Part shown: piece by piece, positions 18,479-38,632 of the stretch
How the letters are laid out: each line of letters begins with the position of its first letter
Numbering within the stretch: position 1 is the stretch's first letter
Assembly (NCBI GenBank): GCA_000002445.1
Contig: CP000067.1
Span: 1,408,001-1,472,000 of the forward strand
DNA: 64,000 nt
From: Trypanosoma brucei
Lineage: Eukaryota
Direction: 5' to 3'
The notes under the pieces: generated by a model
Database searches by the model: none
The model's input: only the letters and a program-made list of their open reading frames with translations
Told to the model about the DNA's origin: nothing
Translations under genes and position numbers: made by a program

Positions 18479-19034
18479 GTCTACAAAGAAGTTATCGAGG
18501 GAAAAACAATTTAAATTGGCAAATGCGAGAATTCGCGCAGTCGTTAGCAACACAATTAGCTGACAAATTCATGTTCATCACAATTCAATGTAGACCGCTA
18601 TGAAAGAACTCATAAAGGTCGTATGAGGCATGAGGATATACGTCCACGAGGGAGACATTTGAAATCATGAATATCTCAACAGTTATTAAACTTTACAACT
18701 TAAGTAGGACATCCACTCCCAAACTAGGCAATATTTTAAAAGTTACATTTGGGGGAAAGGGACCGTTAATCACGGTTTCGAACGATACCCAAAAACTGTT
18801 CATAACCAAACCTCCCAGTTTTGACCGAAACGAAACGGCGTAACTGTCATGTGATCAACAAATGAGTTCCAAGGAAAAATAATCAACGAACGGTATAGTA
18901 TGCCGTCGGTTATTACACACAGACACACACACACAGAAAGTAACTAAAGTGTTTCAGGAATAGGAGTGACGCTAATACAATCCTAACAAACTATAGGGTG
19001 AGGGATCTCATAGTTCCCAAGCAACCTCAATAAT

Positions 19035-20237: not shown

Positions 20238-20793
20238 GTCTACAAAGAAGTTATCGAGGGAAAAACAATTTAAATTGGCAAATGCGAGAATTCGCGCAGT
20301 TGTTAGAAACACAATTAGCTGACAAATTCATGTTCATCACAATTCAATGTAGACCGCTATGAAAGAACTCATAAAGGTCGTATGAGGCATGAGGATATAC
20401 GTCCACGAGGGAGACATTTGAAATCATGAATATCTCAACAGTTATTAAACTTTACAACTTAAGTAGGACATCCACTCCCAAACTAGGCAATATTTTAAAA
20501 GTTACATTTGGGGGAAAGGGACCGTTAATCACGGTTTCGAACGATACCCAAAAACTGTTCATAACCAAACCTCCCAGTTTTGACCGAAACGAAACGGCGT
20601 AACTGTCATGTGATCAACAAATGAGTTCCAAGGAAAAATAATCAACGAACGGTATAGTATGCCGTCGGTTATTACACACAGACACACACACACAGAAAGT
20701 AACTAAAGTGTTTCAGGAATAGGAGTGACGCTAATACAATCCTAACAAACTATAGGGTGAGGGATCTCATAGTTCCCAAGCAACCTCAATAAT

Positions 20794-21996: not shown

Positions 21997-22552
21997 GTCT
22001 ACAAAGAAGTTATCGAGGGAAAAACAATTTAAATTGGCAAATGCGAGAATTCGCGCAGTTGTTAGAAACACAATTAGCTGACAAATTCATGTTCATCACA
22101 ATTCAATGTAGACCGCTATGAAAGAACTCATAAAGGTCGTATGAGGCATGAGGATATACGTCCACGAGGGAGACATTTGAAATCATGAATATCTCAACAG
22201 TTATTAAACTTTACAACTTAAGTAGGACATCCACTCCCAAACTAGGCAATATTTTAAAAGTTACATTTGGGGGAAAGGGACCGTTAATCACGGTTTCGAA
22301 CGATACCCAAAAACTGTTCATAACCAAACCTCCCAGTTTTGACCGAAACGAAACGGCGTAACTGTCATGTGATCAACAAATGAGTTCCAAGGAAAAATAA
22401 TCAACGAACGGTATAGTATGCCGTCGGTTATTACACACAGACACACACACACAGAAAGTAACTAAAGTGTTTCAGGAATAGGAGTGACGCTAATACAATC
22501 CTAACAAACTATAGGGTGAGGGATCTCATAGTTCCCAAGCAACCTCAATAAT

Positions 22553-23755
22553 TCAGGCCCTCTTACGCCAAAAGGGAAAAGAAGGTAGGATTTCTCTTTT
22601 CCGTCCAAGTCGGAATTCACACTGCATCGCTGCCCAATTGCTATTCAACCACATTAGCTTTGAGGGTGCCGGTGGTATTACACCTTCAGGAAAGTAGTCC
22701 ATTAACATTTCGTAATCGGCTTCCTGTATGTGGTGTATCACAACAGACATGTTCCTAACGCTCTTCTTCACACCAAACTTGCCCGCATTGTGAAAGTGAC
22801 AACGACCCATCTCCACACTTATTAGGTTTCTGTACACTACCTTTTCTCTCAGTATCATTCCAACCATCACATCTTCATAGAACATGCCAAGATCAAGAAA
22901 GTCAAAATAGTCCCACATAGAAAAGGGCATGTTCACTAGACGCTCAAGAGGTTTATACGAAATGATGGCTTGTGCAGTGTCCCTGGAGAGAGTAATGCAA
23001 TATCCGTTCACATATGTAAGTTGGTTACGCCGCCATATCCGGTTATAGTAGTTGTAACGACCCATATACAAACCATGACGAGGCATTACACGAAGGTCCG
23101 CAAGGTATTTTGGAACACGAATAAATATGTCATCATCACCCTTCACAATGTAACTTACGTTAGGAAACATGTGAAGAGCAAACCGAAGCCACAAATATGT
23201 TTTCCGACTCATCGCAACCTCAGCCTCAATTCCCCAGTTTCCATTCTCACCAATCTTCTTCCGTGTGGATGGAGAGACATCATTTGTTGGTAGTGTAATA
23301 ATGTCATGTGTACGTGCGGCCTCTTCCTTTAGTGAGTGTGAAATCAAATAACTGTTTGACTGATGTGGTGCGAGAAGACATAATGGCAGGAGACTCCCAC
23401 TAAAGTTGTTTGATCGTGTGGCCACGCCACTATACTTCCAGCATGTCTGTCGCTGCAAGTCACGCCGCCTGCTTCTCTCACTGTTGTCCACAGAAGGAAT
23501 TCCAAGGACGGCTAGGAACCTTTGTGCCTTCCACACGGCAGCAACATTAGACGGAACGAACATCAAATATTCACCTTCGTCTATCGGTTGTGAAACTCCA
23601 GCCTGATTTTCATCTAAAAAAGTAGATACCTCATGAATTCTATGTAAGTTGCAGCAGATAATCAAGAGTGACATCACAAGTAGAAGTATCACTGCTATGT
23701 CTGCTGTACGTGGCCTCCTCCTCGCTTGTGTTGGTCGCATCTTCAGCGGTGACAT
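22553..23755 (-). CDS. GT31/GT67-like type-II glycosyltransferase, array copy 4 (subtype E/G/C)
   Basis: Shares the three linked substitutions of copy 3. Confidence 0.6.
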   Translation of the reverse strand: MSPLKMRPTQARRRPRTADIAVILLLVMSLLIICCNLHRIHEVSTFLDENQAGVSQPIDEGEYLMFVPSNVAAVWKAQRFLAVLGIPSVDNSERSRRRDLQRQTCWKYSGVATRSNNFSGSLLPLCLLAPHQSNSYLISHSLKEEAARTHDIITLPTNDVSPSTRKKIGENGNWGIEAEVAMSRKTYLWLRFALHMFPNVSYIVKGDDDIFIRVPKYLADLRVMPRHGLYMGRYNYYNRIWRRNQLTYVNGYCITLSRDTAQAIISYKPLERLVNMPFSMWDYFDFLDLGMFYEDVMVGMILREKVVYRNLISVEMGRCHFHNAGKFGVKKSVRNMSVVIHHIQEADYEMLMDYFPEGVIPPAPSKLMWLNSNWAAMQCEFRLGRKREILPSFPFWRKRA

Positions 23756-24311
23756 GTCTACAAAGAAGTTATCGACGGAAAAACAATTTAAATTGGCAAA
23801 TGCGAGAATTCGCGCAGTTGTTAGAAACACAATTAGCTGACAAATTCATGTTCATCACAATTCAATGTAGACCGCTATGAAAGAACTCATAAAGGTCGTA
23901 TGAGGCATGAGGATATACGTCCACGAGGGAGACATTTGAAATCATGAATATCTCAACAGTTATTAAACTTTACAACTTAAGTAGGACATCCACTCCCAAA
24001 CTAGGCAATATTTTAAAAGTTACATTTGGGGGAAAGGGACCGTTAATCACGGTTTCGAACGATACCCAAAAACTGTTCATAACCAAACCTCCCAGTTTTG
24101 ACCGAAACGAAACGGCGTAACTGTCATGTGATCAACAAATGAGTTCCAAGGAAAAATAATCAACGAACGGTATAGTATGCCGTCGGTTATTACACACAGA
24201 CACACACAAACAGAAAGTAACTAAAGTGTTTCAGGAATAGGAGTGACGCTAATACAATCCTAACAAACTATAGGGTGAGGGATCTCATAGTTCCCAAGCA
24301 ACCTCAATAAT

Positions 24312-25514
24312 TCAGGCCCTCTTACGCCAAAAGGGAAAAGAAGGTAGGATTTCTCTTTTCCGTCCAAGTCGGAATTCACACTGCATCGCTGCCCAATTGC
24401 TATTCAACCACATTAGCTTTGAGGGTGCCGGTGGTATTACACCTTCAGGAAAGTAGTCCATTAACATTTCGTAATCGGCTTCCTGTATGTGGTGTATCAC
24501 AACAGACATGTTCCTAACGCTCTTCTTCACACCAAACTTGCCCGCATTGTGAAAGTGACAACGACCCATCTCCACACTTATTAGGTTTCTGTACACTACC
24601 TTTTCTCTCAGTATCATTCCAACCATCACATCTTCATAGAACATGCCAAGATCAAGAAAGTCAAAATAGTCCCACATAGAAAAGGGCATGTTCACTAGAC
24701 GCTCAAGAGGTTTATACGAAATGATGGCTTGTGCAGTGTCCCTGGAGAGAGTAATGCAATATCCGTTCACATATGTAAGTTGGTTACGCCGCCATATCCG
24801 GTTATAGTAGTTGTAACGACCCATATACAAACCATGACGAGGCATTACACGAAGGTCCGCAAGGTATTTTGGAACACGAATAAATATGTCATCATCACCC
24901 TTCACAATGTAACTTACGTTAGGAAACATGTAAAGAGCAAACCGAAGCCACAAATATGTTTTCCGACTCATCGCAACCTCAGCCTCAATTCCCCAGTTTC
25001 CATTCTCACCAATCTTCTTCCGTGTGGATGGAGAGACATCATTTGTTGGTAGTGTAATAATGTCATGTGTACGTGCGGCCTCTTCCTTTAGTGAATGTGA
25101 AATCAAATAACTGTTTGACTGATGTGGTGCGAGAAGATATAATGGCAGGAGACTCCCACTAAAGTTGTTTGATCGTGTGGCCACGCCACTATACTTCCAG
25201 CATGTCTGTCGCTGCAAGTCACGCCGCCTGCTTCTCTCACTGTTGTCCACAGAAGGAATTCCAAGGACGGCTAGGAATCTTTGTGCCTTCCACACGGCAG
25301 CAACATTAGACGGAACGAACATCAAATATTCATCTTCGTCTATCGGTTGTGAAACTCCAGCCTGATTTTCATCTAAAAAAGTAGATACCACATGAATTCT
25401 ATGTAAGTTGCAGCAGATAATCAAGAGTGACATCACAAGTAGAAGTATCACTGCTATGTCTGCTGTACGTGGCCTCCTCCTCGCTTGTGTTGGTCGCATC
25501 TTCAGCGGTGACAT
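24312..25514 (-). CDS. GT31/GT67-like type-II glycosyltransferase, array copy 5 (subtype V/D/Y with a private H->Y change, FALYMFPN)
   Basis: As for copy 2, plus one private substitution. Confidence 0.6.
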   Translation of the reverse strand: MSPLKMRPTQARRRPRTADIAVILLLVMSLLIICCNLHRIHVVSTFLDENQAGVSQPIDEDEYLMFVPSNVAAVWKAQRFLAVLGIPSVDNSERSRRRDLQRQTCWKYSGVATRSNNFSGSLLPLYLLAPHQSNSYLISHSLKEEAARTHDIITLPTNDVSPSTRKKIGENGNWGIEAEVAMSRKTYLWLRFALYMFPNVSYIVKGDDDIFIRVPKYLADLRVMPRHGLYMGRYNYYNRIWRRNQLTYVNGYCITLSRDTAQAIISYKPLERLVNMPFSMWDYFDFLDLGMFYEDVMVGMILREKVVYRNLISVEMGRCHFHNAGKFGVKKSVRNMSVVIHHIQEADYEMLMDYFPEGVIPPAPSKLMWLNSNWAAMQCEFRLGRKREILPSFPFWRKRA

Positions 25515-26070
25515 GTCTACAAAGAAGTTATCGAGGGAAAAACAATTTAAATTGGCAAATGCGAGAATTCGCGCAGTTGTTAGAAACACAATTAGCTGAC
25601 AAATTCATGTTCATCACAATTCAATGTAGACCGCTATGAAAGAACTCATAAAGGTCGTATGAGGCATGAGGATATACGTCCACGAGGGAGACATTTGAAA
25701 TCATGAATATCTCAACAGTTATTAAACTTTACAACTTAAGTAGGACATCCACTCCCAAACTAGGCAATATTTTAAAAGTTACATTTGGGGGAAAGGGACC
25801 GTTAATCACGGTTTCGAACGATACCCAAAAACTGTTCATAACCAAACCTCCCAGTTTTGACCGAAACGAAACGGCGTAACTGTCATGTGATCAACAAATG
25901 AGTTCCAAGGAAAAATAATCAACGAACGGTATAGTATGCCGTCGGTTATTACACACAGACACACACAAACAGAAAGTAACTAAAGTGTTTCAGGAATAGG
26001 AGTGACGCTAATACAATCCTAACAAACTATAGGGTGAGGGATCTCATAGTTCCCAAGCAACCTCAATAAT

Positions 26071-27273
26071 TCAGGCCCTCTTACGCCAAAAGGGAAAAGA
26101 AGGTAGGATTTCTCTTTTCCGTCCAAGTCGGAATTCACACTGCATCGCTGCCCAATTGCTATTCAACCACATTAGCTTTGAGGGTGCCGGTGGTATTACA
26201 CCTTCAGGAAAGTAGTCCATTAACATTTCGTAATCGGCTTCCTGTATGTGGTGTATCACAACAGACATGTTCCTAACGCTCTTCTTCACACCAAACTTGC
26301 CCGCATTGTGAAAGTGACAACGACCCATCTCCACACTTATTAGGTTTCTGTACACTACCTTTTCTCTCAGTATCATTCCAACCATCACATCTTCATAGAA
26401 CATGCCAAGATCAAGAAAGTCAAAATAGTCCCACATAGAAAAGGGCATGTTCACTAGACGCTCAAGAGGTTTATACGAAATGATGGCTTGTGCAGTGTCC
26501 CTGGAGAGAGTAATGCAATATCCGTTCACATATGTAAGTTGGTTACGCCGCCATATCCGGTTATAGTAGTTGTAACGACCCATATACAAACCATGACGAG
26601 GCATTACACGAAGGTCCGCAAGGTATTTTGGAACACGAATAAATATGTCATCATCACCCTTCACAATGTAACTTACGTTAGGAAACATGTGAAGAGCAAA
26701 CCGAAGCCACAAATATGTTTTCCGACTCATCGCAACCTCAGCCTCAATTCCCCAGTTTCCATTCTCACCAATCTTCTTCCGTGTGGATGGAGAGACATCA
26801 TTTGTTGGTAGTGTAATAATGTCATGTGTACGTGCGGCCTCTTCCTTTAGTGAGTGTGAAATCAAATAACTGTTTGACTGATGTGGTGCGAGAAGATATA
26901 ATGGCAGGAGACTCCCACTAAAGTTGTTTGATCGTGTGGCCACGCCACTATACTTCCAGCATGTCTGTCGCTGCAAGTCACGCCGCCTGCTTCTCTCACT
27001 GTTGTCCACAGAAGGAATTCCAAGGACGGCTAGGAACCTTTGTGCCTTCCACACGGCAGCAACATTAGACGGAACGAACATCAAATATTCATCTTCGTCT
27101 ATCGGTTGTGAAACTCCAGCCTGATTTTCATCTAAAAAAGTAGATACCACATGAATTCTATGTAAGTTGCAGCAGATAATCAAGAGTGACATCACAAGTA
27201 GAAGTATCACTGCTATGTCTGCTGTACGTGGCCTCCTCCTCGCTTGTGTTGGTCGCATCTTCAGCGGTGACAT
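26071..27273 (-). CDS. GT31/GT67-like type-II glycosyltransferase, array copy 6 (subtype V/D/Y)
   Basis: Protein identical to copy 2. Confidence 0.6.
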   Translation of the reverse strand: MSPLKMRPTQARRRPRTADIAVILLLVMSLLIICCNLHRIHVVSTFLDENQAGVSQPIDEDEYLMFVPSNVAAVWKAQRFLAVLGIPSVDNSERSRRRDLQRQTCWKYSGVATRSNNFSGSLLPLYLLAPHQSNSYLISHSLKEEAARTHDIITLPTNDVSPSTRKKIGENGNWGIEAEVAMSRKTYLWLRFALHMFPNVSYIVKGDDDIFIRVPKYLADLRVMPRHGLYMGRYNYYNRIWRRNQLTYVNGYCITLSRDTAQAIISYKPLERLVNMPFSMWDYFDFLDLGMFYEDVMVGMILREKVVYRNLISVEMGRCHFHNAGKFGVKKSVRNMSVVIHHIQEADYEMLMDYFPEGVIPPAPSKLMWLNSNWAAMQCEFRLGRKREILPSFPFWRKRA

Positions 27274-27829
27274 GTCTACAAAGAAGTTATCGAGGGAAAA
27301 ACAATTTAAATTGGCAAATGCGAGAATTCGCGCAGTTGTTAGAAACACAATTAGCTGACAAATTCATGTTCATCACAATTCAATGTAGACCGCTATGAAA
27401 GAACTCATAAAGGTCGTATGAGGCATGAGGATATACGTCCACGAGGGAGACATTTGAAATCATGAATATCTCAACAGTTATTAAACTTTACAACTTAAGT
27501 AGGACATCCACTCCCAAACTAGGCAATATTTTAAAAGTTACATTTGGGGGAAAGGGACCGTTAATCACGGTTTCGAACGATACCCAAAAACTGTTCATAA
27601 CCAAACCTCCCAGTTTTGACCGAAACGAAACGGCGTAACTGTCATGTGATCAACAAATGAGTTCCAAGGAAAAATAATCAACGAACGGTATAGTATGCCG
27701 TCGGTTATTACACACAGACACACACAAACAGAAAGTAACTAAAGTGTTTCAGGAATAGGAGTGACGCTAATACAATCCTAACAAACTATAGGGTGAGGGA
27801 TCTCATAGTTCCCAAGCAACCTCAATAAT

Positions 27830-28840
27830 TCAGGCCCTCTTACGCCAAAAGGGAAAAGAAGGTAGGATTTCTCTTTTCCGTCCAAGTCGGAATTCACACT
27901 GCATCGCTGCCCAATTGCTATTCAACCACATTAGCTTTGAGGGTGCCGGTGGTATTACACCTTCAGGAAAGTAGTCCATTAACATTTCGTAATCGGCTTC
28001 CTGTATGTGGTGTATCACAACAGACATGTTCCTAACGCTCTTCTTCACACCAAACTTGCCCGCATTGTGAAAGTGACAACGACCCATCTCCACACTTATT
28101 AGGTTTCTGTACACTACCTTTTCTCTCAGTATCATTCCAACCATCACATCTTCATAGAACATGCCAAGATCAAGAAAGTCAAAATAGTCCCACATAGAAA
28201 AGGGCATGTTCACTAGACGCTCAAGAGGTTTATACGAAATGATGGCTTGTGCAGTGTCCCTGGAGAGAGTAATGCAATATCCGTTCACATATGTAAGTTG
28301 GTTACGCCGCCATATCCGGTTATAGTAGTTGTAACGACCCATATACAAACCATGACGAGGCATTACACGAAGGTCCGCAAGGTATTTTGGAACACGAATA
28401 AATATGTCATCATCACCCTTCACAATGTAACTTACGTTAGGAAACATGTGAAGAGCAAACCGAAGCCACAAATATGTTTTCCGACTCATCGCAACCTCAG
28501 CCTCAATTCCCCAGTTTCCATTCTCACCAATCTTCTTCCGTGTGGATGGAGAGACATCATTTGTTGGTAGTGTAATAATGTCATGTGTACGTGCGGCCTC
28601 TTCCTTTAGTGAGTGTGAAATCAAATAACTGTTTGACTGATGTGGTGCGAGAAGATATAATGGCAGGAGACTCCCACTAAAGTTGTTTGATCGTGTGGCC
28701 ACGCCACTATACTTCCAGCATGTCTGTCGCTGCAAGTCACGCCGCCTGCTTCTCTCACTGTTGTCCACAGAAGGAATTCCAAGGACGGCTAGGAATCTTT
28801 GTGCCTTCCACACGGCAGCAACATTAGACGGAACGAACAT
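27830..28840 (-). pseudogene. 5'-truncated terminal copy of the glycosyltransferase array. It lacks the cytosolic tail, the signal-anchor and ~64 N-terminal residues, so it is probably a relic.
   Basis: Similarity to the repeat unit stops at ~28852. The unit reads …catcttcgtctatcggttgtg… whereas this copy reads …catccttttattaaaaaatg…. The remaining ORF (336 aa, MFVPSNVAAV…) has no N-terminal hydrophobic anchor. Confidence 0.6.
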
Positions 28841-31800
28841 CAAATATTCATCCTTTTATTAAAAAATGTGTTTGTCCTTTGAGTTTCATGTAAAAAAAAA
28901 AAGAAAGACGATGACACCGTTTTTCGTAGTTGATTGTAGTGCTCCGCCATTTTCTGCAGTCTTTATTTTTGCGAAAGGGCCTTGACGGTGCCGCCTTGTT
29001 ACGTAACGCTTTTATAAAGTTCGATGTGTAAGTTTCGTTTGTGCCTACTGTTGTTTTTAGTTAAAAAAAAAAGTTATGAGAGTTGAGTGGTAACTGGTAC
29101 GACCCCTTTATTATTAGCAGGTAAAGAAAAGGCATGTTTTTTTCTTCTATTTTTTTTGTTAAACAAACCCGAACATGGTGTTAATTATGACAAATTTTCA
29201 CATATGCGGTGTGGTCGCACGATCGATCCCACAACTACCAGGCCGTGAAGGAGAAGGAGACGTTAACATCGTAAGAATATGTGTTGTTGCATTATTTATT
29301 TTTCAAAGAAATAATGGCGATTCCCCCCATAGTTACAGTTGGCTTTTGTGATTCACCCCTCACATTCACTTTTATGTACCCGATGTGCCATAAAGGTGGG
29401 ACGAATATTCATTAATTTGAAAAGTTTGTGCATGGCATATTCGACATCAAACCCTTCTTTTTTTTAAAAAAAAAACAACATCTTCCGATATGTTAATGTT
29501 AATGCTAATTTTCATTTTCATATTTTATTTTTTAAGTTGAGATGCGTTCGACGTGAATTGTTCCTCCCTCCTGCGCTAACTTTGGAGAATGTTTTGAGTA
29601 CTTTTGGAGTGTTCAGCACTTCACTGACATTCGCGGAGCATATATATATATATATTTTTTTTTTTTTATAAGAAAAAAAAAGCGCCAACTGTGGACCCCG
29701 CACTGTTTTTGCACTTCGTTCATCCGCTTTTCCATTTAAAATTCACTAATTAGAAATTTCACATAAGTCACCGGCTCTCCTTCACACGATGTAAATTTCG
29801 GTATGGCGTGGCGTGGCGTGCAGGCGTAATATTTTTTTTCCTCATTCAGTAATACATACATGAGTGCACACAAGCAAACGTATATTTTATTTTATTTTAT
29901 ATGCGAACTGTAACTCGAGACTATCTCAAGCACGAGAATATGAGGAACCTCGGTGCCTTCGCTTCCTTTTTTTTTTTATTCCCCAATAATTCTTTTGCTA
30001 TATCATGTTGTGTCACTTCCTCCTTATCTTTTTACATATGGTCGCATGGTGACAAAAAGTTTTGTAGGGAACGAATTTTTTTTTTTTTAAACAGAAGAAA
30101 AGAAAAGGAAAAAAGAAAAAGAAAAGAATGGGAAGTGACACAAGCGTCAGTTTGTACATAAAAGTTCCACGGAGGTGCGGGGGCGATATGTTAACATCAG
30201 TTCATACATTTCATAAGTGTTTTTTTTTTAGCATCGGTCCATTCATTCAATCCAGTATCAGAAAGCGAGGTAAAGATAAAGATGAAGATGAAGAAAGAAA
30301 AAAAAAGAAAAAAAAAAGAAAAAAGAATAGGGGAAGGTGGGAAGAAAAGCGGCAGCAAACTGGCGAATGGCGCGTCACTTCATTCAAGCGGATAAAATTC
30401 TCTTTTCTTATTTTGTTTTGTGTTTTTTGTTTTTGTTTTTAAAACTGTTATTAATACTTTTTCTTTACTTTACTCTTCTTTTTTACTTTATTTTATTTTG
30501 GTTCTGCTCCCCACAATATTCACCACAGTGAAGAGAAGAACACACACAAACACAAAAGAAAAAAGAAAAGAAAAGGAGACAAGAGGAGGCATTTATTTTC
30601 CTCTTTCCCTTCAGTTACGTACCGGAGGTGCAAACAAGGCGAAAAAGAAATGAAAAAAAGTATCACAATTGGCATGAAGGAACAACAACAACAAAAAAAA
30701 TTTTTAAAAAAAAGAAGAAGAAAAGGCGAATGAAAGTTTTTTTTTAAAAAAAAAGAAGAAAAAAAAGAAAAAAAAAGAGGAGGGGACAATCCACTGGGGA
30801 ATAAACAACAAAACTTACGATAGGAGAGTAAAAATAAAAAAATGAAAAAAAAGCAGAGGGTGGACATGGACAAGAGAGCGATGAATAAATTTTTTTTTAA
30901 AGAAAAAACGTGTAGAGACAATAATAATAATAATAACAATAATAGTGATTAATAACAGTATGGGGCGGGAAGAGAACCGACGGCCAAAAAGAAAAAAAAA
31001 CAAAAAACAAAAACACATGGAAACAAAAAGAAAAAAAAAGGAAAAAAGAAAAGCGAACAATCGTTTGCATAAGTTGACGTTGCATTTCATTATGCGTTCA
31101 CTACTTTTATCGTTTGCAACACTTACGCACGTCCCTGTTTCTTTTAGTCTCTTTTTTTTTAAAAAAAAAAAGAAAGAAGCGTTGCTGAGAAATATTTAAT
31201 TTACACTTCAGTAAGCAAGCGAACAAACAAAAGAAAAAAAATAACAGTAAAAGTACCATTAAATGATATCAATAATAATAATAACAATAACAATCTGATA
31301 TGATATGATATGATAACATACCAATGATAATAGCAATGATAATAAATATAAACAAAAAAATTTAAAAAGAAATTCATTGTCACCCCACTTATTTTCTTTC
31401 TATATCGTTCAATTTCTTATCACTTTCTTTTTTTTTGTTTCGTTTCTGTTGCCGCTTTCTTTTGTTTTCTTTTTTTTTTTGTTATTTCAGATCCTCCGAC
31501 GCAACTGCCAGTCTGGCGCTACATTTTCTTCAATTCCTCATCCTTTTTTGGTGTCAGACCTCGCTACTTTTTAACTTCGCCTCGCAAACTCCCACTAGCT
31601 ATTCATCTTTATTTATTTTTATTTTATTTATTTTATTTTCTTTTCGCCTCAAACGTCTCTTCGGGTTTCCACTCCTTCCTCTTCTATAAATAAATATAAA
31701 TATAAATAAAAATATATAAATATATAAATATATAAATTCTCTTCAGTGGAATAACCAAGCAGCAGATATTGAAGTTAATACATACCCTGACGGCCCCCAT

Positions 31801-32146
31801 ATACCCGCACACATATAAATATAAATAAATAAATAAATAATATAAATATAATGATGGAACAAGTGAAGTAAAGAAACAAACAAACAAACAAGAAAAGAAA
31901 CGACAGCTAAACGCACAATAAAAATCGCAACAAAAAAAAAAAGAAGAAAAGAGACGTCCATTTGCTTCACCACTTCGTTTCCCCTCCTTTCTTTTCTTTT
32001 TTCCTTTTCTTTTCCTCTTTTTTTTTTTCGGTGTGGTGGGGGGTGGGGAGGTTTATTTGACTTGACGTAACGGAGGAAAAAAAAAACAATGCGGGAACAA
32101 CTTCACGTGTACTTTGTCAAAAATATTTGAGGGTACAACGACGACA

Positions 32147-32199
<53 letters not shown>
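32147..32199. repeat. (AAT)17 trinucleotide microsatellite
   Basis: Read directly from the sequence. It produces a spurious poly-Leu ORF on the minus strand. Confidence 0.9.
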
Positions 32200-32205
<6 letters not shown>

Positions 32206-33140
32206 CAAAACGCAGCAGCTAAATGAAGTATGAAACGAGCCGAAACAAACCAAACCGAACCGAAACAACAACAACAACAACACCATCAATAACTGTAACT
32301 ATAACTATATAATAATAATAGTAATATCAACAAAAATAATAAACAATAATAGTTGTAACAGAAACATTGATATTGAGGTCGTTTTGGATCAACCGAAACA
32401 AAACATAACAACAAAAAAAAAGACAGAAAAGTAGACATATATGAACGCACCTATCGCATGTGAGTTCAGTGCTTTGAATATTTAATGGGTTCAGTTTCTG
32501 CAATTTACTTTCCTCATTTTATTCATACAAAAAAAAAAAATGTCTTTCCATTCGAATTTTTTTTCTATTTTCTTCCTTTATGATTACTCCTACATTTACA
32601 ATTTACCTTTAACTTTTTCTTTCTGTTGTTGTTTCTAAGCTTCAGTTGATTGACTTCTTCATCTCGATACACCGTTTCTTGTTGTTGTTGTTTTCCCCCC
32701 TCTTCCTCTCCTATTCCTTTCCCTTTCCCTTTTCCTTTCCCTTTTCCTCTTACTTTTACAATTATTATTATTAATATTATTATTATTCCTCATTTCCCTA
32801 TATATATATATATATATATATTGTTCCTTCCTGCAGTATTAGCCACACGTTCGAATCACTTTCATCTCTAATTTCATTGGTTTTTCATTTCCCCCCCCCG
32901 CCCGCCGCCTCTCGCCGTTTCTTTTTTTTTTCCTTTTTTCTTTAAATTTCCTAACTTAAATTTTCGTTGTTTAACGGTGTTTATCTTTTTTTTCTTTTCC
33001 TTTCTTTTTCTTCTTAAAATTTATATTCACCTCCTTCTTTCGCTAAGTTGCTAAAAGTAAGTGAAGTGTCACAGACTCGACAGGCGGGTCTCTCCCTTTT
33101 TTTCTTTTTTTTTTGTTTTTCCATTCGCTTCTCTCTGATA

Positions 33141-33200
33141 ACAAACAAACACGCACAAACACGCACAAACACGCACAAACACGCAAACACGCACAAACGC
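33141..33200. repeat. Imperfect (ACGCACAAAC)n minisatellite of ~5 units
   Basis: Read directly from the sequence. It produces the spurious 'VCACLCVFVRV' ORFs. Confidence 0.85.
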
Positions 33201-33876
33201 AAAAAAAAAAAAAACAGACAAATACAAAATCTGCCATGTATATTTTCTAATATCATCTTCACTTAATATAAACAAAATCAATTTTCCAAAGACGTTCTTT
33301 TCTTTATTTCAAATTCTTACTCTTTTTTTTCTTTTTCTTTTTTTTTTTGAAAAAAAAAAAATCGATCTGCTTTCGTTCTGTTCTGCATCACGGTTTGTTT
33401 GTTTGTTTGTTTTTTACGTGTCATGTACATTTTCTTTACTTCTGTAAAATTTCGCCACACCTCATGCTTTGACAAGCCAAGTTACCTCTCTTTCTCGCTC
33501 CCTTTCTTTCTGCTTCCATTCGAAACAGTTAAAAAAAACAATTCCGCAAACTGCACTTCAACAAGTTCATGTTGCCTTCCAGTTCATCCTAACACTATAA
33601 TCACCCATTCTTCTTTTTTACCGTTTCATTATCTCTTTTTTTTCTTCTTCTTTTGTTTGCTTTTTTGTGTGTTTGTGCAGAGAAGAAGAAGAAAAAACAA
33701 ACAAAAGAGATCGGTTCTACAGTGGTTTGTTACCCCCACTTCACTTCAACCGTACACCACCCAATTCAATCATTACACAAAACATCAACACTAAGGAAAA
33801 GCAAAAACAAAAACAAAAACAAGAACAAACAAAAAGAAAAAAAGGAAAAGGAAAAGGAAAAAAAAAAAGAAATTTG

Positions 33877-35199
33877 TCAACGAGGCACGGCATTCTGAAG
33901 GACAGAAATCCAACGCTCGTAAGATTCTTCTGAGCGGTCCTTAAACCAATACGCCTTTCCCGTTTGGTTCTTAAGGGCAAAGACGTATTTTTCATGAGCC
34001 ATTGCAGCGTCTATTGGACAAACAGATGTAAGGGCTTCAAGATCCACCCTCTCAACATCACCAGTTTCTACATTTCGCATTAAGACCCCGTTATGGTCTA
34101 GTGAAAGTTCGCAGTCCTTCCAACCACGATCCGCAGTGTGACGTTGCAACATCCCACGGTGAGGTGTCACACGACTTCCCTCATATTCGGGGAGTTCGGA
34201 ACTCAACACCTCATCAATGTTTTGTGCAATCTCATTGAAAACCTGCTGTGGAATCTTTTTGTGGATCTCCACACTCCGTCGGAGCGTTTCTAAGCCACGG
34301 CGAATGAAAGGTAGTTGAAAAAGCTGCCGCAATGACGGCCGTTTAGCCGGATCGAGAGAAAGTAACTGATCACACACCCGGCGAAGATCATCCGAGTACA
34401 TATTTGGAAGCGGGGCGCGGCGGGCATGGACAATATTATCAATGAGCTCATCCATATTACGCCCACCAAAAGGACGCTTGAGTACCATAACTTCATACAA
34501 CACCACACCAAGAGCCCACATTTCACTCTTTTTGCTGTACGGTGCGCGGCGCCAGAGTTCGGGGCTCAAATAATATGGCGTCCCACAGAAAGTAGTGCCA
34601 ACAGGATTTGACAGCGAGTCCTCGTATTGACGACTGAAGCCAAAGTCACCCAACTTCACAAGGCCCGTCGTCGTGAGCAGCACGTTGGCAGTTTTAAGGT
34701 CGCGGTGCATCATGTTATTGCCATGAATGTGATCCAGCGCAAGACATAGTTGCAAAAATATGTATAACACTTCATGTTCCTTGAAGTGCCGTACCGCGTG
34801 CTGGCGTGCTTTGATCTGTCTGTAGAGATCACCACCATCAGCATACTCCATGATGATGAGCAACATCCCACCGCGGTCGTATGAGGCTCGGTGGCGTATA
34901 ATATTTGCATTGTTGCAGCGTGAAAGGCATTTAACCTCATTTGTCACGAAACCGCGATCCTTCGCGCTCATATTGTTTGTGTCCATCACCTTTGCTGCAA
35001 AAATTAGCCCCGTTGCCGTTTCTTCCACCCGCCATGCGCTACCAAAACTCCCCTGACCCAAAAGTTTCTTCTTAACATATTTGCATTCGGCACGTGAGCC
35101 GAGAATTCCTTCAAGAGGATCTTTTTTTTCCGTGCCTTCCTCCGCGGGTGGTACCGGAAGGGCGCTGTTACCGTTCGCGGGACGCTTATGTTCCGTCAT
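33877..35199 (-). CDS. NEK-family serine/threonine protein kinase with a C-terminal PH-like domain
   Basis: Genuine ATG. Kinase motifs GQGSFGSAW, AAKVM, HRDLKTANVLL, DFGFSRQ, GTPYYLSPE and the DLYRQI/L-rich regions are typical of NEKs. The C-terminal ~110 aa (…WKDCELSLDHNGVLMRN…KYVFALKNQTGKAYWFKDRSEESYERWISVLQNA) fit a PH fold ending in the conserved Trp. Confidence 0.8.
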   Translation of the reverse strand: MTEHKRPANGNSALPVPPAEEGTEKKDPLEGILGSRAECKYVKKKLLGQGSFGSAWRVEETATGLIFAAKVMDTNNMSAKDRGFVTNEVKCLSRCNNANIIRHRASYDRGGMLLIIMEYADGGDLYRQIKARQHAVRHFKEHEVLYIFLQLCLALDHIHGNNMMHRDLKTANVLLTTTGLVKLGDFGFSRQYEDSLSNPVGTTFCGTPYYLSPELWRRAPYSKKSEMWALGVVLYEVMVLKRPFGGRNMDELIDNIVHARRAPLPNMYSDDLRRVCDQLLSLDPAKRPSLRQLFQLPFIRRGLETLRRSVEIHKKIPQQVFNEIAQNIDEVLSSELPEYEGSRVTPHRGMLQRHTADRGWKDCELSLDHNGVLMRNVETGDVERVDLEALTSVCPIDAAMAHEKYVFALKNQTGKAYWFKDRSEESYERWISVLQNAVPR

Positions 35200-35965
35200 G
35201 CGTTATTGTTTCACGACAGTATGTCCGAGTAGTACTCCACTGTTAGTAATAACACAACGATTTACACACACTGCGTTGCTTGGTGTCCACTGTAAAGCAA
35301 AGTATACGTATATATTTCCTTTTGTTTCCCTTCACTGTATCAACACACACACACACAAAACAAAAAAAAAATCTCCCCGTTTCCGGTTTTATATGCACAG
35401 TTGTTGCCAATTATTTACTGGTTGGGCGCCAGCCTCAGTGCAGGAATGTGTGGCGTGAGCAGAACTTTGTGTTTTGTCCCACTCGTTGCTTGTTGCCTGC
35501 ACAGTGAACTTTCGTTCCCTAACCCTTCTCCTTTATTTACTCACCTTTCGGCTTCTTTTCGACTGATTTGTCCAGTTTTCTCCACGATACCTCAACGGCA
35601 CCAAACCCAAGGAGAAAACAAGGCTGTTGGACACTTTATGGGGTATCGTGCTTCCTAAACCAAGTGTACGTGTACGTACGGGTGTAATGAAATGGAAAGA
35701 GGAAAGTCAGCAACAGCAAGGAGGAAATGGTGGAGACTAAGCAAAAGGCAAAAAAAAAAGGATAAGCAAGCCAAAGTTTCGACACTAACTGTGAAGAACA
35801 ATGCCAGTTGAAGGACCATTGACGCTCTTCGCAGGGAGGAAGAAAAATTTGTAACTGATGCTTAATGGTCAAATAGTTAAAGGGCCTCAAACTGAAAAGC
35901 TTCGGGTCGTGCGAGCAAGGCATCCTTCTCTTCCCGACTTACCAACCCACCAACCGTCCAAAGGT

Positions 35966-38632
35966 TCACTCAACAGCAGTTGCGGATGACGATTCAGAGC
36001 GAGACCGTTTTGCTGGTGGTTCACTCGATGAGTTCTCCTCGCCTTCATTTTCTTCACTATCACAGTTGCAACTATCGTCGTTGGACGCAAAATCACTGTT
36101 GTCTGGGGCCTGCTGGGCAGATGTTGTGTAATGGCTCTCAAGCGGGTCGTCGTAACCAACCACTCCGGAGCCCATCACCTGCAACTTATTGTTGGCCGGT
36201 TGCGCATCGACGCCAAGCTCTGCCAACAATAATTCAAAATCTGAATCTCTCCCATTCCACCCATTACGCTCCACTGTGCTCGCTACACTTGACGTCTCTG
36301 CACCAGCAGAAGCGGCTTCCTCAGGTGTCTCCAGCAGCGAGTGCTCCAAGCGAGTGGCGAGAGCTGGGCAGTGCTGTCGCATGCGCTCTCCGTAAGCTTG
36401 CCACAGTCGATTGCCAACATTATGGCACATATTTCTGTTGCACTCATCCACATCTACGTCCGCGCCGTCGCCGTTCGCGGATGAGATAACAGTGCTTTCA
36501 TCTTCGGACGCAAACAGCGACGGCGCAAAGGGATTATTGGCTGAGCCGCAGAACGATGTTTGCCGCAGCGCACTCCCCTTTTCCATGCGGATTGCTCTGC
36601 ACAGGGAATCAATAAGATGGGCAAGAGAGGAGCGGAACAAACTGTTGCTGTTGGGGCTACAGACTAAATAACGGCGCACGGCTGTATCGAGAAGCTCTCC
36701 ACCTGCATACAGCAGTGGCAATGCCACAAGCTGTCGCTTGTTGCAATTTAATAGGGAAGCAATAAAAGACGCAACGGACGATTGCACGTTCGCGACAGAA
36801 CGTGCACGAGACTGCAGTACGTTGTCCAAACATTGCACCAGGCAAGACTGTTGTAGAAGGTTAGCAAGCGGCCTACTAAGCGGTTCATCTACCGCGTCAA
36901 CAAGCACTGTAAAGACTCTTAGTATGTGAATCACACGTGTCTCGCCGTGGAATCCTCGCATCACTCTCTCTAACGAACCCAAGACGTTCACCAGCCCCTC
37001 TGTAAGCGATAGTAGTGGAGGCCGTCGTTTCCCATCATCTCCATTCAACCAAAATTGTATAATGTCGCGCCTCTCAGCCGCACAGATAGCCACGCCAGCC
37101 GGTGACTGAAGCAGCGCGCACGTTACGCAAGACACTACGGCATCCACTGCCGCCTGCAGTTCAGCGCCACAGTGAGTTACCACAACGCATTGCAGCAGTA
37201 ACTCGAGTAAGCAACCATCCGGCTTAGAATGGCCCTCCTCCGTAAGCAAACACCGTCCCTGAGGGTAAAATGTGAGGCAATTACTGATGATATCACATGC
37301 CATCAGTAGCGCCATCCCTGGTGAAATGTTAGGTGATATTAAGCACTGTTGGTCCGGTTGCCAGCGAGGCGCTGCTTCGTAAAGGGCCAGAGCCCTAGAA
37401 AGAACGAACCGAATAAAGGGTATCAGCGACGTTCTGATCATGGCCCCAAATATGGACGACTTATACTCAATGGACATCGTAGCGCTGCGCACCGTCCTGC
37501 ACATATCGTGTAGGAATGCGGTGACTTCAAAGGCAAGTTTAACGTCGTCGTAAGCCCGAGTAAAGGCTTCGGGTAAAATATGACGCGACTTGCATATGTC
37601 ATCCACCAGTTGGCTTTTATTAGTCATTATGTAATTGCTGAGAAGCGAAGAAGGGTTGGCATCTGCTTCATCAAGGGAGACCGGAAGCATATCTTTCAAG
37701 CAACTACACGCATGCAGTTCGTGAATCTTCAACACAGTGCTCTCCGGAAGCATAAGCGGATTACGAAATGTTGCACGCCGTTGGGCAATGTCAACGAAAC
37801 CCGATTGACTATCACACCTTCCAATAGCAAACTGCACGACCTGGAGAACCCTGTCAATAACTTCCCTGTCTATAAATTGGGAGATAATTTTCCCGTCTGT
37901 ACAGAACGGTTGATGTAAGAGTGTAGTTGTGATTGTCCCTATGAGATTCATGCCCCGCTGGTCGTTGTCTCCTTTGCAATATTCAAATAGGTCTACCAAC
38001 TCCTTAATGTACGTCTCGTGACTCCGAACGAACAGTCCGAAGCGCTGTGGGTTTGTCTGCATCACAGAAATAATAATTGGAAGATTTTCACGGCATACCA
38101 ACCAGTTTCTGCAGAGTGCCAGAGGTCCTCCACACCCATCAATGTAGCCCTCAGCCTCACTCCCAGTGACTACAAGACCTCCTCCGTCGTCACCACCATT
38201 GTTCATCCCCCCGACTTCGGTAGGAGGCCTACGTGAGCGTTGGTAATCTAATATTTCTGAATAGATCTTATCGCATCCCTCTTTTGTGTTGAAGCTGCAT
38301 GAGAGAAGGCGACCAAGCGCCACATCTGACCACAAGAGAATGGTTTCCTGCTGGACAACGTAGATATCCTCGAGGCTGATAGGCGTACTGATTAACAGCT
38401 CTTGTGGGTTGTCAATATCAACCATTTCCAGACACCCAACTGTTTGCTCCAACCTGCCGCAGTCGCCACTTCGCCCTTCGCCTTTGCCTTCACCAAACCC
38501 CTCCTCTCCTTCATTAGCTACGGAGCGCATCACAATAAATACAACACCAACACCCATTTCTGTCCATGACTCCTGGTCGGACAGGGCCGTGTACAACTTC
38601 GCCTTCGTGAAGAGATGAGGGCCATTATCCAT
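35966..38632 (-). CDS. Protein phosphatase 4 regulatory subunit 3 (PP4R3/SMEK) homologue, 888 aa. The track start is GTG; ATG at 38632.
   Basis: The N-terminal EVH1/RanBD-like domain aligns with human SMEK1: KAKLYTALSDQESWTEMGVGVVFI vs [22 protein letters not shown], and ELLISTPISLEDIYVVQQETILLWSDVALGRLLSCSFNTKEGCDKIYSEILDYQ vs [52 protein letters not shown]. A long helical ARM-like body and an acidic Ser-rich tail follow. Confidence 0.65.
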   Translation of the reverse strand: MDNGPHLFTKAKLYTALSDQESWTEMGVGVVFIVMRSVANEGEEGFGEGKGEGRSGDCGRLEQTVGCLEMVDIDNPQELLISTPISLEDIYVVQQETILLWSDVALGRLLSCSFNTKEGCDKIYSEILDYQRSRRPPTEVGGMNNGGDDGGGLVVTGSEAEGYIDGCGGPLALCRNWLVCRENLPIIISVMQTNPQRFGLFVRSHETYIKELVDLFEYCKGDNDQRGMNLIGTITTTLLHQPFCTDGKIISQFIDREVIDRVLQVVQFAIGRCDSQSGFVDIAQRRATFRNPLMLPESTVLKIHELHACSCLKDMLPVSLDEADANPSSLLSNYIMTNKSQLVDDICKSRHILPEAFTRAYDDVKLAFEVTAFLHDMCRTVRSATMSIEYKSSIFGAMIRTSLIPFIRFVLSRALALYEAAPRWQPDQQCLISPNISPGMALLMACDIISNCLTFYPQGRCLLTEEGHSKPDGCLLELLLQCVVVTHCGAELQAAVDAVVSCVTCALLQSPAGVAICAAERRDIIQFWLNGDDGKRRPPLLSLTEGLVNVLGSLERVMRGFHGETRVIHILRVFTVLVDAVDEPLSRPLANLLQQSCLVQCLDNVLQSRARSVANVQSSVASFIASLLNCNKRQLVALPLLYAGGELLDTAVRRYLVCSPNSNSLFRSSLAHLIDSLCRAIRMEKGSALRQTSFCGSANNPFAPSLFASEDESTVISSANGDGADVDVDECNRNMCHNVGNRLWQAYGERMRQHCPALATRLEHSLLETPEEAASAGAETSSVASTVERNGWNGRDSDFELLLAELGVDAQPANNKLQVMGSGVVGYDDPLESHYTTSAQQAPDNSDFASNDDSCNCDSEENEGEENSSSEPPAKRSRSESSSATAVE

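What the first reader, a model, noticed from the sequence alone, without database searches (positions are those of the whole stretch)
28853..33876. ~5-kb coding-free low-complexity island inside a unidirectional transcription unit, with a strand-composition switch
Intergenic spacers elsewhere in the window are 0.3-1.6 kb. Here 5 kb lacks any credible ORF and is built from homopolymer runs, (AAT)17, (TA)n, GTTT/GTTTGTTT and ACGCACAAAC minisatellites. From ~29.9 to 31.2 kb the (+) strand is purine-rich, which puts a polypyrimidine tract on the transcribed minus strand, as expected upstream of a trans-splice acceptor. From ~31.4 to 33.7 kb the (+) strand becomes pyrimidine-rich instead, the reverse polarity. 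It could be an unusually long regulatory 3'UTR of the NEK kinase at 33877-35199. It could also be an internal landmark of the polycistron, such as a termination/re-initiation site with base-J or H3.V-type chromatin, a replication origin, or a decayed repeat. Assembly-prone sequence like this also commonly hides collapsed repeats.
Basis: partly seen in the sequence, partly recalled or inferred. Interest (0 to 1): 0.5.

Follow-up and report, generated by a model that had tools for sequence, protein, structure and literature searches.

The report
Long regulatory 3'UTR of trypanosome RDK2
The 5-kb gene-free, low-complexity stretch is mostly the already published 3.7-kb regulatory 3' untranslated region of the Trypanosoma brucei differentiation kinase RDK2, followed by a small known non-coding transcript and the next gene's 5'UTR, so it is real but already explained.

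Summary
The window is T. brucei TREU927 chromosome 4 (window coordinate = chromosome coordinate minus 1,408,000). The 5,036-bp gap at 28841-33876 is the longest, most AT-rich and most tract-rich spacer in the window.

Published transcript maps account for all of it.
- 30178-33876 is the annotated 3,699-nt 3'UTR of Tb927.4.5310 (NEK12.2/RDK2).
- 29158-30079 is the trans-spliced, polyadenylated novel transcript Tb4.NT.61 (Kolev 2010).
- 28841-29047 is the 5'UTR of the first glycosyltransferase gene, Tb927.4.5300.

The "strand-composition switch" is a mosaic, not a single switch. A-rich purine blocks lie in the proximal UTR and U-rich pyrimidine blocks in the distal UTR. Trenaman et al. 2024 named RDK2 as an exemplar of exactly this class: long 3'UTRs dense in both tract types on mRNAs translated more in bloodstream forms. 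Their reporter-assay hit (32386-33393) falls in the purine block.

Published transcription-start maps show one uninterrupted transcription unit across the gap. I found no gene relic, RNA family or large repeat, and two assemblies agree on its length to within 11 bp.

New here: predicted folding is much stronger than shuffled controls (z = -6.6), and it pairs the purine block with the pyrimidine block.

Verdict: already known; low interest.

The parts
33877..35199 (-). Coding sequence of Tb927.4.5310 (NEK12.2/RDK2), a NEK kinase with a C-terminal PH domain, 440 aa
   Evidence: Pfam Pkinase 4.8e-60 plus PH. 100% protein identity to the T. b. gambiense DAL972 protein on chr 4. Gene identity from Jones 2014 and Jackson 2007.
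35200..35654 (-). RDK2 5'UTR (455 nt), with the mapped spliced-leader acceptor site at 35654
   Evidence: Kolev 2010 Table S12 gives the splice site at 1443654 and a 5'UTR of 455 nt. An AG lies immediately upstream on the minus strand.
30178..33876 (-). Annotated RDK2 3'UTR, 3,699 nt, a mosaic of A-rich purine and U-rich pyrimidine tracts
   Evidence: Trenaman 2024 supplementary file 3, row 399, gives the UTR as 1438178-1441876. Proxy motif densities are 54.6 purine and 61.4 pyrimidine 9-mers per kb, against 3.8 and 8.5 in the other gaps.
32386..33393 (-). Positive-regulatory hit fragment from the published reporter assay, lying inside the UTR
   Evidence: Trenaman 2024 supplement: 1440386-1441393, 'increased', adjusted p 0.052. 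In mRNA sense it is A 0.42 and G 0.23, with 100 A-rich purine 9-mers per kb.
32477..33676 (-). Proximal purine-rich block of the mRNA (purine fraction 0.67-0.76, dipping to 0.53 at 33077-33276, where the GT-rich decamer repeat sits)
32147..32199 (.). Perfect (AAT)17.7 microsatellite, (AUU)n in the mRNA. It is 27 bp (9 units) shorter in DAL972.
30677..31076 (-). Distal pyrimidine (U)-rich block of the mRNA (purine fraction 0.21-0.27). The predicted structure pairs it with the purine block.
30093..30128 (-). 36-nt polypyrimidine tract, 50 nt downstream of the annotated RDK2 polyadenylation site and upstream of the splice site at 30027
   Evidence: Splice site 1438027 from Kolev 2010.
29158..30079 (-). 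Tb4.NT.61, a published low-abundance, trans-spliced and polyadenylated novel transcript (921 nt). Its longest ATG-started ORF is 41 aa.
   Evidence: Kolev 2010 Table S7 gives 1438079-1437158, minus strand, abundance 1.61. Splice site at 30027 is preceded by AG; ORF scan.
28841..29047 (-). 5'UTR (207 nt) of Tb927.4.5300. The major splice site at 29047 is preceded by a T10 tract (29070-29061) and an AG.
   Evidence: Kolev 2010 Table S12 gives 1437047 and a 5'UTR of 207 nt. Sequence read.
27830..28840 (-). Tb927.4.5300, the first copy of the seven-copy UDP-Gal/GlcNAc glycosyltransferase array. It is 5'-truncated: 336 aa against 400 aa for the internal copies.
   Evidence: Pfam Galactosyl_T. Array homology ends at 28852-28855.

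Best explanation
The island is transcribed, non-coding mRNA sequence within a single Pol II transcription unit of T. brucei chromosome 4. Reading the minus strand 5' to 3', it contains three parts:
1. The 3,699-nt 3'UTR of RDK2 (Tb927.4.5310), window 33876 to 30178.
2. A 36-nt pyrimidine tract and an AG acceptor at 30027, which start the ~0.9-kb transcript Tb4.NT.61 (to 29158).
3. A second pyrimidine tract and an AG at 29047, which start the 207-nt 5'UTR of the glycosyltransferase gene Tb927.4.5300.

Shown. The low complexity and the strand switch are the UTR's regulatory content. A-rich purine tracts are concentrated in the first ~1.4 kb and again at 2.2-2.6 kb. U-rich pyrimidine tracts are concentrated at 1.4-1.8 kb and 2.8-3.7 kb.

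Published. A-rich purine tracts raise translation according to their dose, and long UTRs dense in both tract types mark mRNAs translated more in bloodstream forms. RDK2 is a kinase that keeps the parasite in the bloodstream form.

Inferred. The pyrimidine blocks pair with the purine blocks and mask them in insect-stage cells. This lets RDK2 be highly translated in the bloodstream while its procyclic-enriched glycosyltransferase neighbours are regulated separately.
For: Coordinates.
- The mapping is exact. Window = chr4 minus 1,408,000 places the RDK2 stop codon at 1441877 and abuts the Tb927.4.5230 UTR to its ORF.
- All three published splice sites (35654, 30027, 29047) are preceded by AG on the window's minus strand.

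Published annotation and assays.
- The annotated 3'UTR and the reporter-assay hit come from Trenaman 2024.
- That paper names RDK2 among 44 transcripts that are more than 3-fold up-translated in bloodstream forms, with UTRs over 2 kb and more than 20 purine and pyrimidine motifs per kb. RDK2 is one of four mapped exemplars.
- RDK2 is among the genes most up-translated in bloodstream forms (Vasquez 2014). Its mRNA is 2.6-fold higher in bloodstream forms (Jensen 2009).
- Tb4.NT.61 and the splice sites come from Kolev 2010.
- A single transcription unit spans Tb927.4.5390 to Tb927.4.5100.

Computed here.
- Tract density in the UTR is 14-fold (purine) and 7-fold (pyrimidine) above the other gaps in the window.
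- The tracts and blocks exceed 500 of 500 shuffles.
- The reporter-assay hit coincides with the purine block.
- The UTR's minimum free energy is -887.8, against -817.7 +/- 10.6 for 16 dinucleotide shuffles (z = -6.6). A coding-sequence control of equal length gives z = +0.19.
- The predicted structure pairs mRNA positions 760-1170 with 2870-3187 through stacked helices of 11-23 bp, plus a 29-bp helix.

Comparative.
- A long downstream spacer recurs in relatives. The paralogue NEK12.1 has a 2,840-nt 3'UTR.
- The orthologues in T. theileri and T. conorhini have the longest local gaps, 3.7 and 2.4 kb. L. naiffi has 2.9 kb.
Against: - Kolev 2010 (procyclic cells) reports heterogeneous RDK2 polyadenylation: a mean 3'UTR of 1,832 nt, SD 1,752, and a 'major' site only 83 nt after the stop codon. 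The 3.7-kb form may therefore not be the only isoform, or the main one, in every life stage.
- The reporter-assay hit has an adjusted p of 0.052 and was not validated individually.
- The masking-by-pairing step is a published hypothesis. Here it rests only on a minimum-free-energy prediction for a 3.7-kb RNA, which is unreliable in detail.
- My motif counts are a proxy, not the paper's FIMO motifs.
- I could not inspect RNA-seq coverage directly.
- The orthologue gaps in T. theileri and T. conorhini contain runs of N, so their lengths are estimates.
Confidence: 0.9

Rival explanations
1. The gap is an internal landmark of the transcription unit: a Pol II termination and re-initiation site marked by base J, H3.V or H2A.Z, and possibly also a replication origin.
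For: It is the longest, most AT-rich and most tract-rich spacer in the window. GT-rich repeats lie on the transcribed strand (33145-33198 and 33797-33841 read as GT-rich on the minus strand). The neighbouring genes have opposite stage regulation.
Against: Kolev 2010 Table S14, built from 5'-triphosphate RNA-seq and stated by its authors to agree with the histone-variant maps, lists one uninterrupted unit from Tb927.4.5390 to Tb927.4.5100. The nearest internal start is between Tb927.4.5100 and Tb927.4.5080, outside the window. There is no tRNA, snRNA or Rfam gene here of the kind that often marks internal boundaries. The whole gap is covered by spliced and polyadenylated transcripts on the same strand. 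From general knowledge, not tested here: published ORC1/CDC6 sites and origins in T. brucei lie at transcription-unit boundaries.
Confidence: 0.04
2. The gap is a graveyard of genes lost after the chromosome 4/8 duplication (the squalene-synthase-like gene and its neighbour), or a decayed mobile element, and is merely transcribed through.
For: The ancestral order in T. theileri, T. conorhini and Leishmania is PP4R3, acetyl-CoA carboxylase, NEK, a squalene-synthase-family (SQS_PSY) gene, a further gene; in T. theileri glycosyltransferase fragments follow downstream. Chromosome 4 lacks the carboxylase and the two genes between the kinase and the glycosyltransferases, so a deletion or decay happened at exactly this spot.
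Against: tblastn with the syntenic proteins finds nothing in the gap better than E = 0.4. Pfam finds nothing in the gap's ORFs. The repeats are only low-complexity families, with no long dispersed or terminal repeats. A long 3'UTR is also present on the paralogue and the orthologues that kept their neighbours, and part of it has reporter activity. The origin of the sequence by gene loss and its present role as a UTR are compatible with each other.
Confidence: 0.04
3. The region is an assembly artefact: a collapsed or mis-assembled repeat.
For: The sequence is prone to mis-assembly. The T. theileri and T. conorhini assemblies break into N runs downstream of the orthologue. A T. equiperdum contig ends 297 bp after the paralogue. 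DAL972 collapses the adjacent glycosyltransferase array to 2 copies.
Against: TREU927 and DAL972 give 5,036 and 5,047 bp and are colinear, with 2.4% substitutions and 43 indels of 45 bp or less, nearly all microsatellite steps. No tandem array here has a unit longer than 18 bp or a span longer than 70 bp. The published splice sites fit the sequence to the nucleotide.
Confidence: 0.02

Closest known systems
Long 3'UTRs rich in both purine and pyrimidine tracts on bloodstream-form up-translated T. brucei mRNAs (Trenaman et al. 2024, Nat Commun; exemplars RBP10, RDK2, GPI-PLC, alternative oxidase)
   Same: This is the same locus: RDK2 is one of the four mapped exemplars. It is 3.7 kb long, against a genome median of 388 nt. 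[quoted passage not shown] It carries a positive reporter-assay fragment and belongs to a protein kinase that promotes the bloodstream form.
   Different: Nothing categorical. Added here: the tracts are segregated into blocks, with purine proximal and pyrimidine distal. The predicted long-range pairing between those blocks is far stronger than in shuffled controls.
RBP10 (Tb927.8.2780) 3'UTR, 7.4 kb
   Same: A very long 3'UTR on a bloodstream-form master regulator, with several independently acting regulatory fragments and rich in both tract types.
   Different: It is twice as long and has been dissected experimentally. The RDK2 UTR has only the genome-wide screen hit.
Canonical trypanosomatid intergenic processing region (pyrimidine tract plus AG splice acceptor, coupled to upstream polyadenylation)
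   Same: Two such units lie in the gap. Tract 30128-30093 leads to AG/30027, with the RDK2 polyadenylation site 50 nt upstream of the tract. The T10 tract at 29070-29061 leads to AG/29047.
   Different: These signals occupy under 200 nt and do not explain the remaining ~1 kb of pyrimidine-rich sequence, which is UTR-internal.
Kolev 2010 'novel transcripts' (1,114 trans-spliced, polyadenylated RNAs outside annotated ORFs)
   Same: Tb4.NT.61 (29158-30079) is one of them.
   Different: It did not appear in the searched conserved-ORF or peptide-supported tables, nor in the table of transcripts with no ORF of 25 aa or more. Its longest ORF is 41 aa. Its function is unknown.

Membership tests
Long purine- and pyrimidine-tract-rich 3'UTR of a bloodstream up-translated mRNA (Trenaman 2024 class) | The sequence lies between a gene's stop codon and its mapped or annotated polyadenylation site, on the sense strand | tested here: met
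   The annotated UTR 1438178-1441876 maps to window 30178-33876 and abuts the stop codon at 33877. The offset was validated by AG dinucleotides at three published splice sites.
Long purine- and pyrimidine-tract-rich 3'UTR of a bloodstream up-translated mRNA (Trenaman 2024 class) | 3'UTR longer than 2 kb | tested here: met
   3,699 nt, against a genome mean of 622 and median of 388.
Long purine- and pyrimidine-tract-rich 3'UTR of a bloodstream up-translated mRNA (Trenaman 2024 class) | More than 20 A-rich purine and more than 20 U-rich pyrimidine 9-nt motifs per kb | tested here: met
   My proxy count (pure 9-mers with at least 6 A or U) gives 54.6 and 61.4 per kb, against 3.8 and 8.5 in the other gaps. 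The paper's own FIMO count places RDK2 in the class.
Long purine- and pyrimidine-tract-rich 3'UTR of a bloodstream up-translated mRNA (Trenaman 2024 class) | More than 3-fold higher translation efficiency in bloodstream than in procyclic forms | not testable with these tools
   Literature only: the Vasquez 2014 table lists Tb927.4.5310 among the most bloodstream-up-translated genes, and Trenaman 2024 lists it too.
Long purine- and pyrimidine-tract-rich 3'UTR of a bloodstream up-translated mRNA (Trenaman 2024 class) | A fragment confers positive regulation on a reporter | not testable with these tools
   Literature only: reporter-assay hit 1440386-1441393, 'increased', adjusted p 0.052.
Trans-splicing/polyadenylation processing site | A polypyrimidine tract followed by an AG at an experimentally mapped spliced-leader site | tested here: met
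   Tract 30128-30093 then AG/30027. T10 tract 29070-29061 then AG/29047. Sites from Kolev 2010.
Internal Pol II start or termination site (H2A.Z/H4K10ac or H3.V/base J boundary) | 5'-triphosphate RNA enrichment, or listing as a transcription-unit boundary | tested here: not met
   Checked against published Table S14 of Kolev 2010: the unit from Tb927.4.5390 to Tb927.4.5100 is uninterrupted.
Internal Pol II start or termination site (H2A.Z/H4K10ac or H3.V/base J boundary) | Histone-variant or base J ChIP peak | not testable with these tools
   No chromatin data are available here.
Replication origin | ORC1/CDC6 binding and an MFA-seq peak | not testable with these tools
   No such data here. 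The locus is not at a transcription-unit boundary.
Pseudogene or mobile-element relic | Residual protein-level similarity to the syntenic lost genes or to known domains | tested here: not met
   tblastn of the syntenic squalene-synthase-family, acetyl-CoA carboxylase and neighbouring proteins gives nothing in the gap better than E = 0.4. Pfam finds nothing on the gap's ORFs.
Structured non-coding RNA gene (snoRNA, tRNA, other Rfam family) | Match at the family's gathering score | tested here: not met
   No Rfam hit at gathering score in the whole window. Only sub-threshold low-complexity hairpins appear at E of 1 or less. No tRNA.

The most novel reading that the evidence does not exclude
The block arrangement, purine proximal and pyrimidine distal, folds the RDK2 3'UTR into a long-range antiparallel duplex. 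This duplex hides the translation-enhancing purine tracts in the insect stage and opens in the mammalian bloodstream through temperature or helicase/RNA-binding-protein action. It would make RDK2 translation a switch for life-cycle commitment. Alternative processing at a cryptic site about 83 nt after the stop codon could provide a short-UTR isoform that escapes this control.
Probability: 0.2. Interest if true: 0.45.

Novelty: already known. Interest (0 to 1): 0.12.

Why it matters
RDK2 keeps T. brucei in its bloodstream form, and trypanosomes regulate almost entirely after transcription, so its UTR is biologically important. However, the UTR's extent, its unusual tract content and its reporter activity were published in 2024, and the small transcript next to it in 2010. 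The practical value of this check is to show that long, gene-free, low-complexity islands inside trypanosome transcription units should first be read as long regulatory 3'UTRs. It also flags two spurious "hypothetical protein" annotations in the DAL972 genome. The predicted purine-pyrimidine long-range pairing gives a concrete, testable version of the published masking hypothesis for one named gene.

Tried and rejected
- Rfam at gathering score on the whole window, and at E of 1 or less on 28000-34500: only sub-threshold hairpin-like hits to unrelated miRNA and sRNA families, caused by adjacent purine and pyrimidine tracts.
- tRNA scan: none.
- Pfam on all eight gap ORFs of 80 aa or more: nothing above cut-off.
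- tblastn of the syntenic genes lost from chromosome 4 (squalene-synthase family, acetyl-CoA carboxylase and neighbours, taken from T. theileri, T. conorhini and L. naiffi): no relic in the gap.
- Repeat search: only low-complexity families, with no long dispersed, terminal or inverted duplications.
- Chromosome 8 paralogue locus: the only contig returned ends 297 bp after the kinase, so no sequence comparison was possible. I used the published UTR length instead.
- T. congolense and T. vivax orthologues: no contigs available.
- Supplements of Siegel 2010 and Guegan 2022: not held, so independent polyadenylation-site and lncRNA annotations could not be checked.
- The T. cruzi RDK2 preprint says nothing about UTR length.
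- One Pfam call failed because of a frame error and was repeated.

Full report
**Where the window comes from**

The kinase ORF at 33877-35199 (minus strand) has a protein kinase domain and a C-terminal PH domain. Its protein is 100% identical to a T. brucei gambiense DAL972 protein on chromosome 4. At the DNA level the window is about 98% identical to DAL972, not identical, so it comes from another T. brucei strain.

Published coordinates fix the source exactly as Tb927_04_v5.1, with window coordinate = chromosome coordinate minus 1,408,000.
- The annotated 3'UTR of Tb927.4.5310 (1438178-1441876) abuts the stop codon at 33877.
- The 3'UTR of Tb927.4.5230 abuts its ORF at 14971.
- Three spliced-leader acceptor sites mapped by Kolev et al. 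2010 (1443654, 1438027, 1437047) each fall immediately after an AG on the window's minus strand.

The kinase is NEK12.2/RDK2, "repressor of differentiation kinase 2" (Jones 2014). It lies in the chromosome 4/8 duplicon (Jackson 2007). Downstream is the seven-copy UDP-Gal/GlcNAc glycosyltransferase array Tb927.4.5240-5300, and upstream is a PP4R3 homologue.

- The gap from the RDK2 stop codon to the first glycosyltransferase ATG is 5,036 bp (28841-33876). The next longest gap in the window is 2,118 bp.
- GC is 0.323, against 0.433 in the other gaps.
- Homopolymers of 8 or more bases cover 8.8%, against 1.3% elsewhere.
- Purine and pyrimidine runs of 12 or more bases cover 8.3% and 10.4%, against 2.3% and 1.2%.
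- These values, and the block-wise swings in purine content (SD 0.144 across 200-nt bins, against 0.041 in shuffles), exceed all 500 dinucleotide-preserving shuffles.
- The gap has no ORF of 140 aa or more, no Pfam domain, no tRNA and no Rfam family.

The "switch" is a mosaic rather than one reversal. Distances below are mRNA-sense positions after the stop codon.

| Position after stop (nt) | Composition |
|---|---|
| 0-200 | U-rich |
| 200-1,400 | 67-76% purine, with a dip to 53% at 600-800 |
| 1,400-1,800 | U-rich, including (AUU)17 |
| 2,200-2,600 | purine-rich again |
| 2,800-3,200 | only 21-27% purine |

**What the sequence is**

Published maps account for all of it.
- Window 30178-33876 is the 3,699-nt annotated 3'UTR of RDK2 (Trenaman et al. 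2024, supplementary file 3).
- Fifty nucleotides past its end lies a 36-nt pyrimidine tract (30128-30093). An AG acceptor follows, with the first exon base at 30027.
- That is the mapped splice site of Tb4.NT.61. This is one of 1,114 trans-spliced, polyadenylated "novel transcripts" from Kolev 2010 and spans window 30079-29158. Its longest ATG-started ORF is 41 aa.
- A T10 tract and an AG then give the major splice site of Tb927.4.5300 at 29047, for a 5'UTR of 207 nt.

**How it most likely works**

Trenaman et al. 2024 screened T. brucei 3'UTRs with a massively parallel reporter assay.
- They found that A-rich purine tracts raise translation according to their dose and density.
- They found that long UTRs (over 2 kb) dense in both A-rich purine and U-rich pyrimidine motifs are over-represented among mRNAs translated more in bloodstream forms.
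- They name RDK2, with RBP10, GPI-PLC and the alternative oxidase, as exemplars and show its locus map.
- Their positive hit fragment for RDK2 (window 32386-33393) lies inside the UTR. I find that it coincides with the purine block: A 0.42, G 0.23, and 100 A-rich purine 9-mers per kb.

Across the whole UTR my proxy counts are 54.6 purine and 61.4 pyrimidine 9-mers per kb, against 3.8 and 8.5 in all other gaps of the window. RDK2 is among the genes most up-translated in bloodstream forms (Vasquez 2014), and its mRNA is 2.6-fold higher there (Jensen 2009). The adjacent glycosyltransferases are procyclic-enriched. Adjacent genes in one transcription unit therefore have opposite stage regulation, which fits control through their own UTRs.

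The published model adds that pyrimidine tracts may pair with and mask purine tracts in the insect stage. That step is hypothetical. As a test, I folded the 3,699-nt UTR.
- The minimum free energy is -887.8 kcal/mol, against -817.7 +/- 10.6 for 16 dinucleotide shuffles, giving z = -6.6.
- A coding segment of the same length from the same window gives z = +0.19.
- In the predicted structure 75% of purine-tract bases are paired, and 62% of those pair with pyrimidine tracts.
- The proximal purine block (mRNA 760-1170) forms a ladder of 11-23-bp helices with the distal pyrimidine block (mRNA 2870-3187). There is also a 29-bp helix (32019-31991 with 31053-31025).

This agrees with the masking idea, but it is only a prediction for a long RNA.

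**Rival explanations**

*Termination and re-initiation landmark, or replication origin.* Kolev 2010 Table S14 was built from 5'-triphosphate RNA-seq, and its authors state it agrees with the histone-variant maps. It lists a single unit from Tb927.4.5390 to Tb927.4.5100. The nearest internal start is between Tb927.4.5100 and Tb927.4.5080, outside the window. Chromatin marks, base J and origin data cannot be examined here.

*Relic of lost genes.* Synteny in T. theileri, T. conorhini and L. naiffi shows the ancestral order PP4R3, acetyl-CoA carboxylase, NEK, a squalene-synthase-family gene and a further gene; in T. theileri glycosyltransferase fragments follow downstream. Chromosome 4 therefore lost genes at this spot. 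tblastn finds no trace of them in the gap. A long spacer after the kinase is also seen where the neighbours survive:
- 2,840-nt annotated 3'UTR for the paralogue NEK12.1;
- 3.7 kb in T. theileri and 2.4 kb in T. conorhini, each the longest gap in its locus although partly N;
- 2.9 kb in L. naiffi.

*Assembly collapse.* TREU927 and DAL972 give 5,036 and 5,047 bp. They are colinear, with 2.4% substitutions and 43 indels of 45 bp or less, nearly all microsatellite steps. The collapse in DAL972 is in the glycosyltransferase array, which has 2 copies instead of 7.

**Caveats**

Kolev 2010 worked on procyclic cells and reports dispersed RDK2 polyadenylation: a mean UTR of 1,832 nt, SD 1,752, and a "major" site 83 nt after the stop codon. 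That site lies about 100 nt upstream of a 19-nt pyrimidine tract (33697-33679). A cryptic processing site and a short isoform are therefore plausible. I could not inspect read coverage. The reporter-assay hit has an adjusted p of 0.052 and was not individually validated.

**Verdict**

The feature is real and biologically meaningful, but it is already described. It is the long regulatory 3'UTR of RDK2, rich in purine and pyrimidine tracts, followed by a known small transcript and the next gene's 5'UTR. Novelty: already known. Interest: low.

Noticed in passing
window 17330-28855: The glycosyltransferase array has seven copies with a 1,759-bp period. Array homology stops at 28852-28855, which is 180 nt inside the ORF of the internal copies. 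The first copy, Tb927.4.5300, is therefore 336 aa instead of 400 and lacks the N-terminal ~64 residues. That may include the membrane anchor expected in such enzymes, which I did not check. The DAL972 assembly holds only two copies, so its array is collapsed.
   Followed up: partly
L001 11806-12159 (+) and 14513-15067 (-), roughly window 33080-33430 and 30104-30658: The DAL972 annotation calls two 'hypothetical proteins' (117 and 184 aa) inside the RDK2 3'UTR. Their translations are K/F/R-rich low-complexity strings from purine and pyrimidine tracts. The ORF lengths differ in TREU927. They look spurious.
   Followed up: partly
window 33794, and 33679-33697: Kolev 2010 lists the 'major' RDK2 polyadenylation site only 83 nt after the stop codon, about 100 nt upstream of a 19-nt pyrimidine tract. 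This could be a cryptic processing site giving a short-UTR isoform plus a UTR-internal transcript in procyclic cells.
   Followed up: no
window 29158-30079: The published transcript Tb4.NT.61 has a longest ORF of 41 aa and a reported abundance value of 1.61. It did not appear in the searched conserved-ORF or peptide-supported tables. Its reported 3' end is followed by a genomic A8 run, so internal priming is possible.
   Followed up: partly
window 58769-64000: There is no ORF of 200 aa or more after Tb927.4.5390 (57473-58768). Kolev Table S14 marks that gene as the first of a 'Divergent' unit, so this stretch is probably the divergent strand-switch region and Pol II start zone.
   Followed up: no
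L003 11321-14997; L004 11324-13758; L002 end: The T. theileri and T. conorhini assemblies contain N runs downstream of the RDK2 orthologue, and a T. equiperdum contig ends 297 bp after the paralogue. Sequence after this kinase seems hard to assemble in several species.
   Followed up: no
window 32888-32910 and 32031-32052: There are G-rich runs: G9 within GGCGGCGGGCGGGGGGGGG on the mRNA strand, and GGTGTGGTGGGGGGTGGGGAGG on the + strand. They could form G-quadruplex-like structures.
   Followed up: no
L002 1-1150 against window 36750-37899; L003-L005: The ancestral gene order PP4R3, acetyl-CoA carboxylase, NEK is kept on chromosome 8 and in other trypanosomatids. Chromosome 4 has lost the carboxylase between PP4R3 and RDK2, and the squalene-synthase-family gene after RDK2.
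   Followed up: partly
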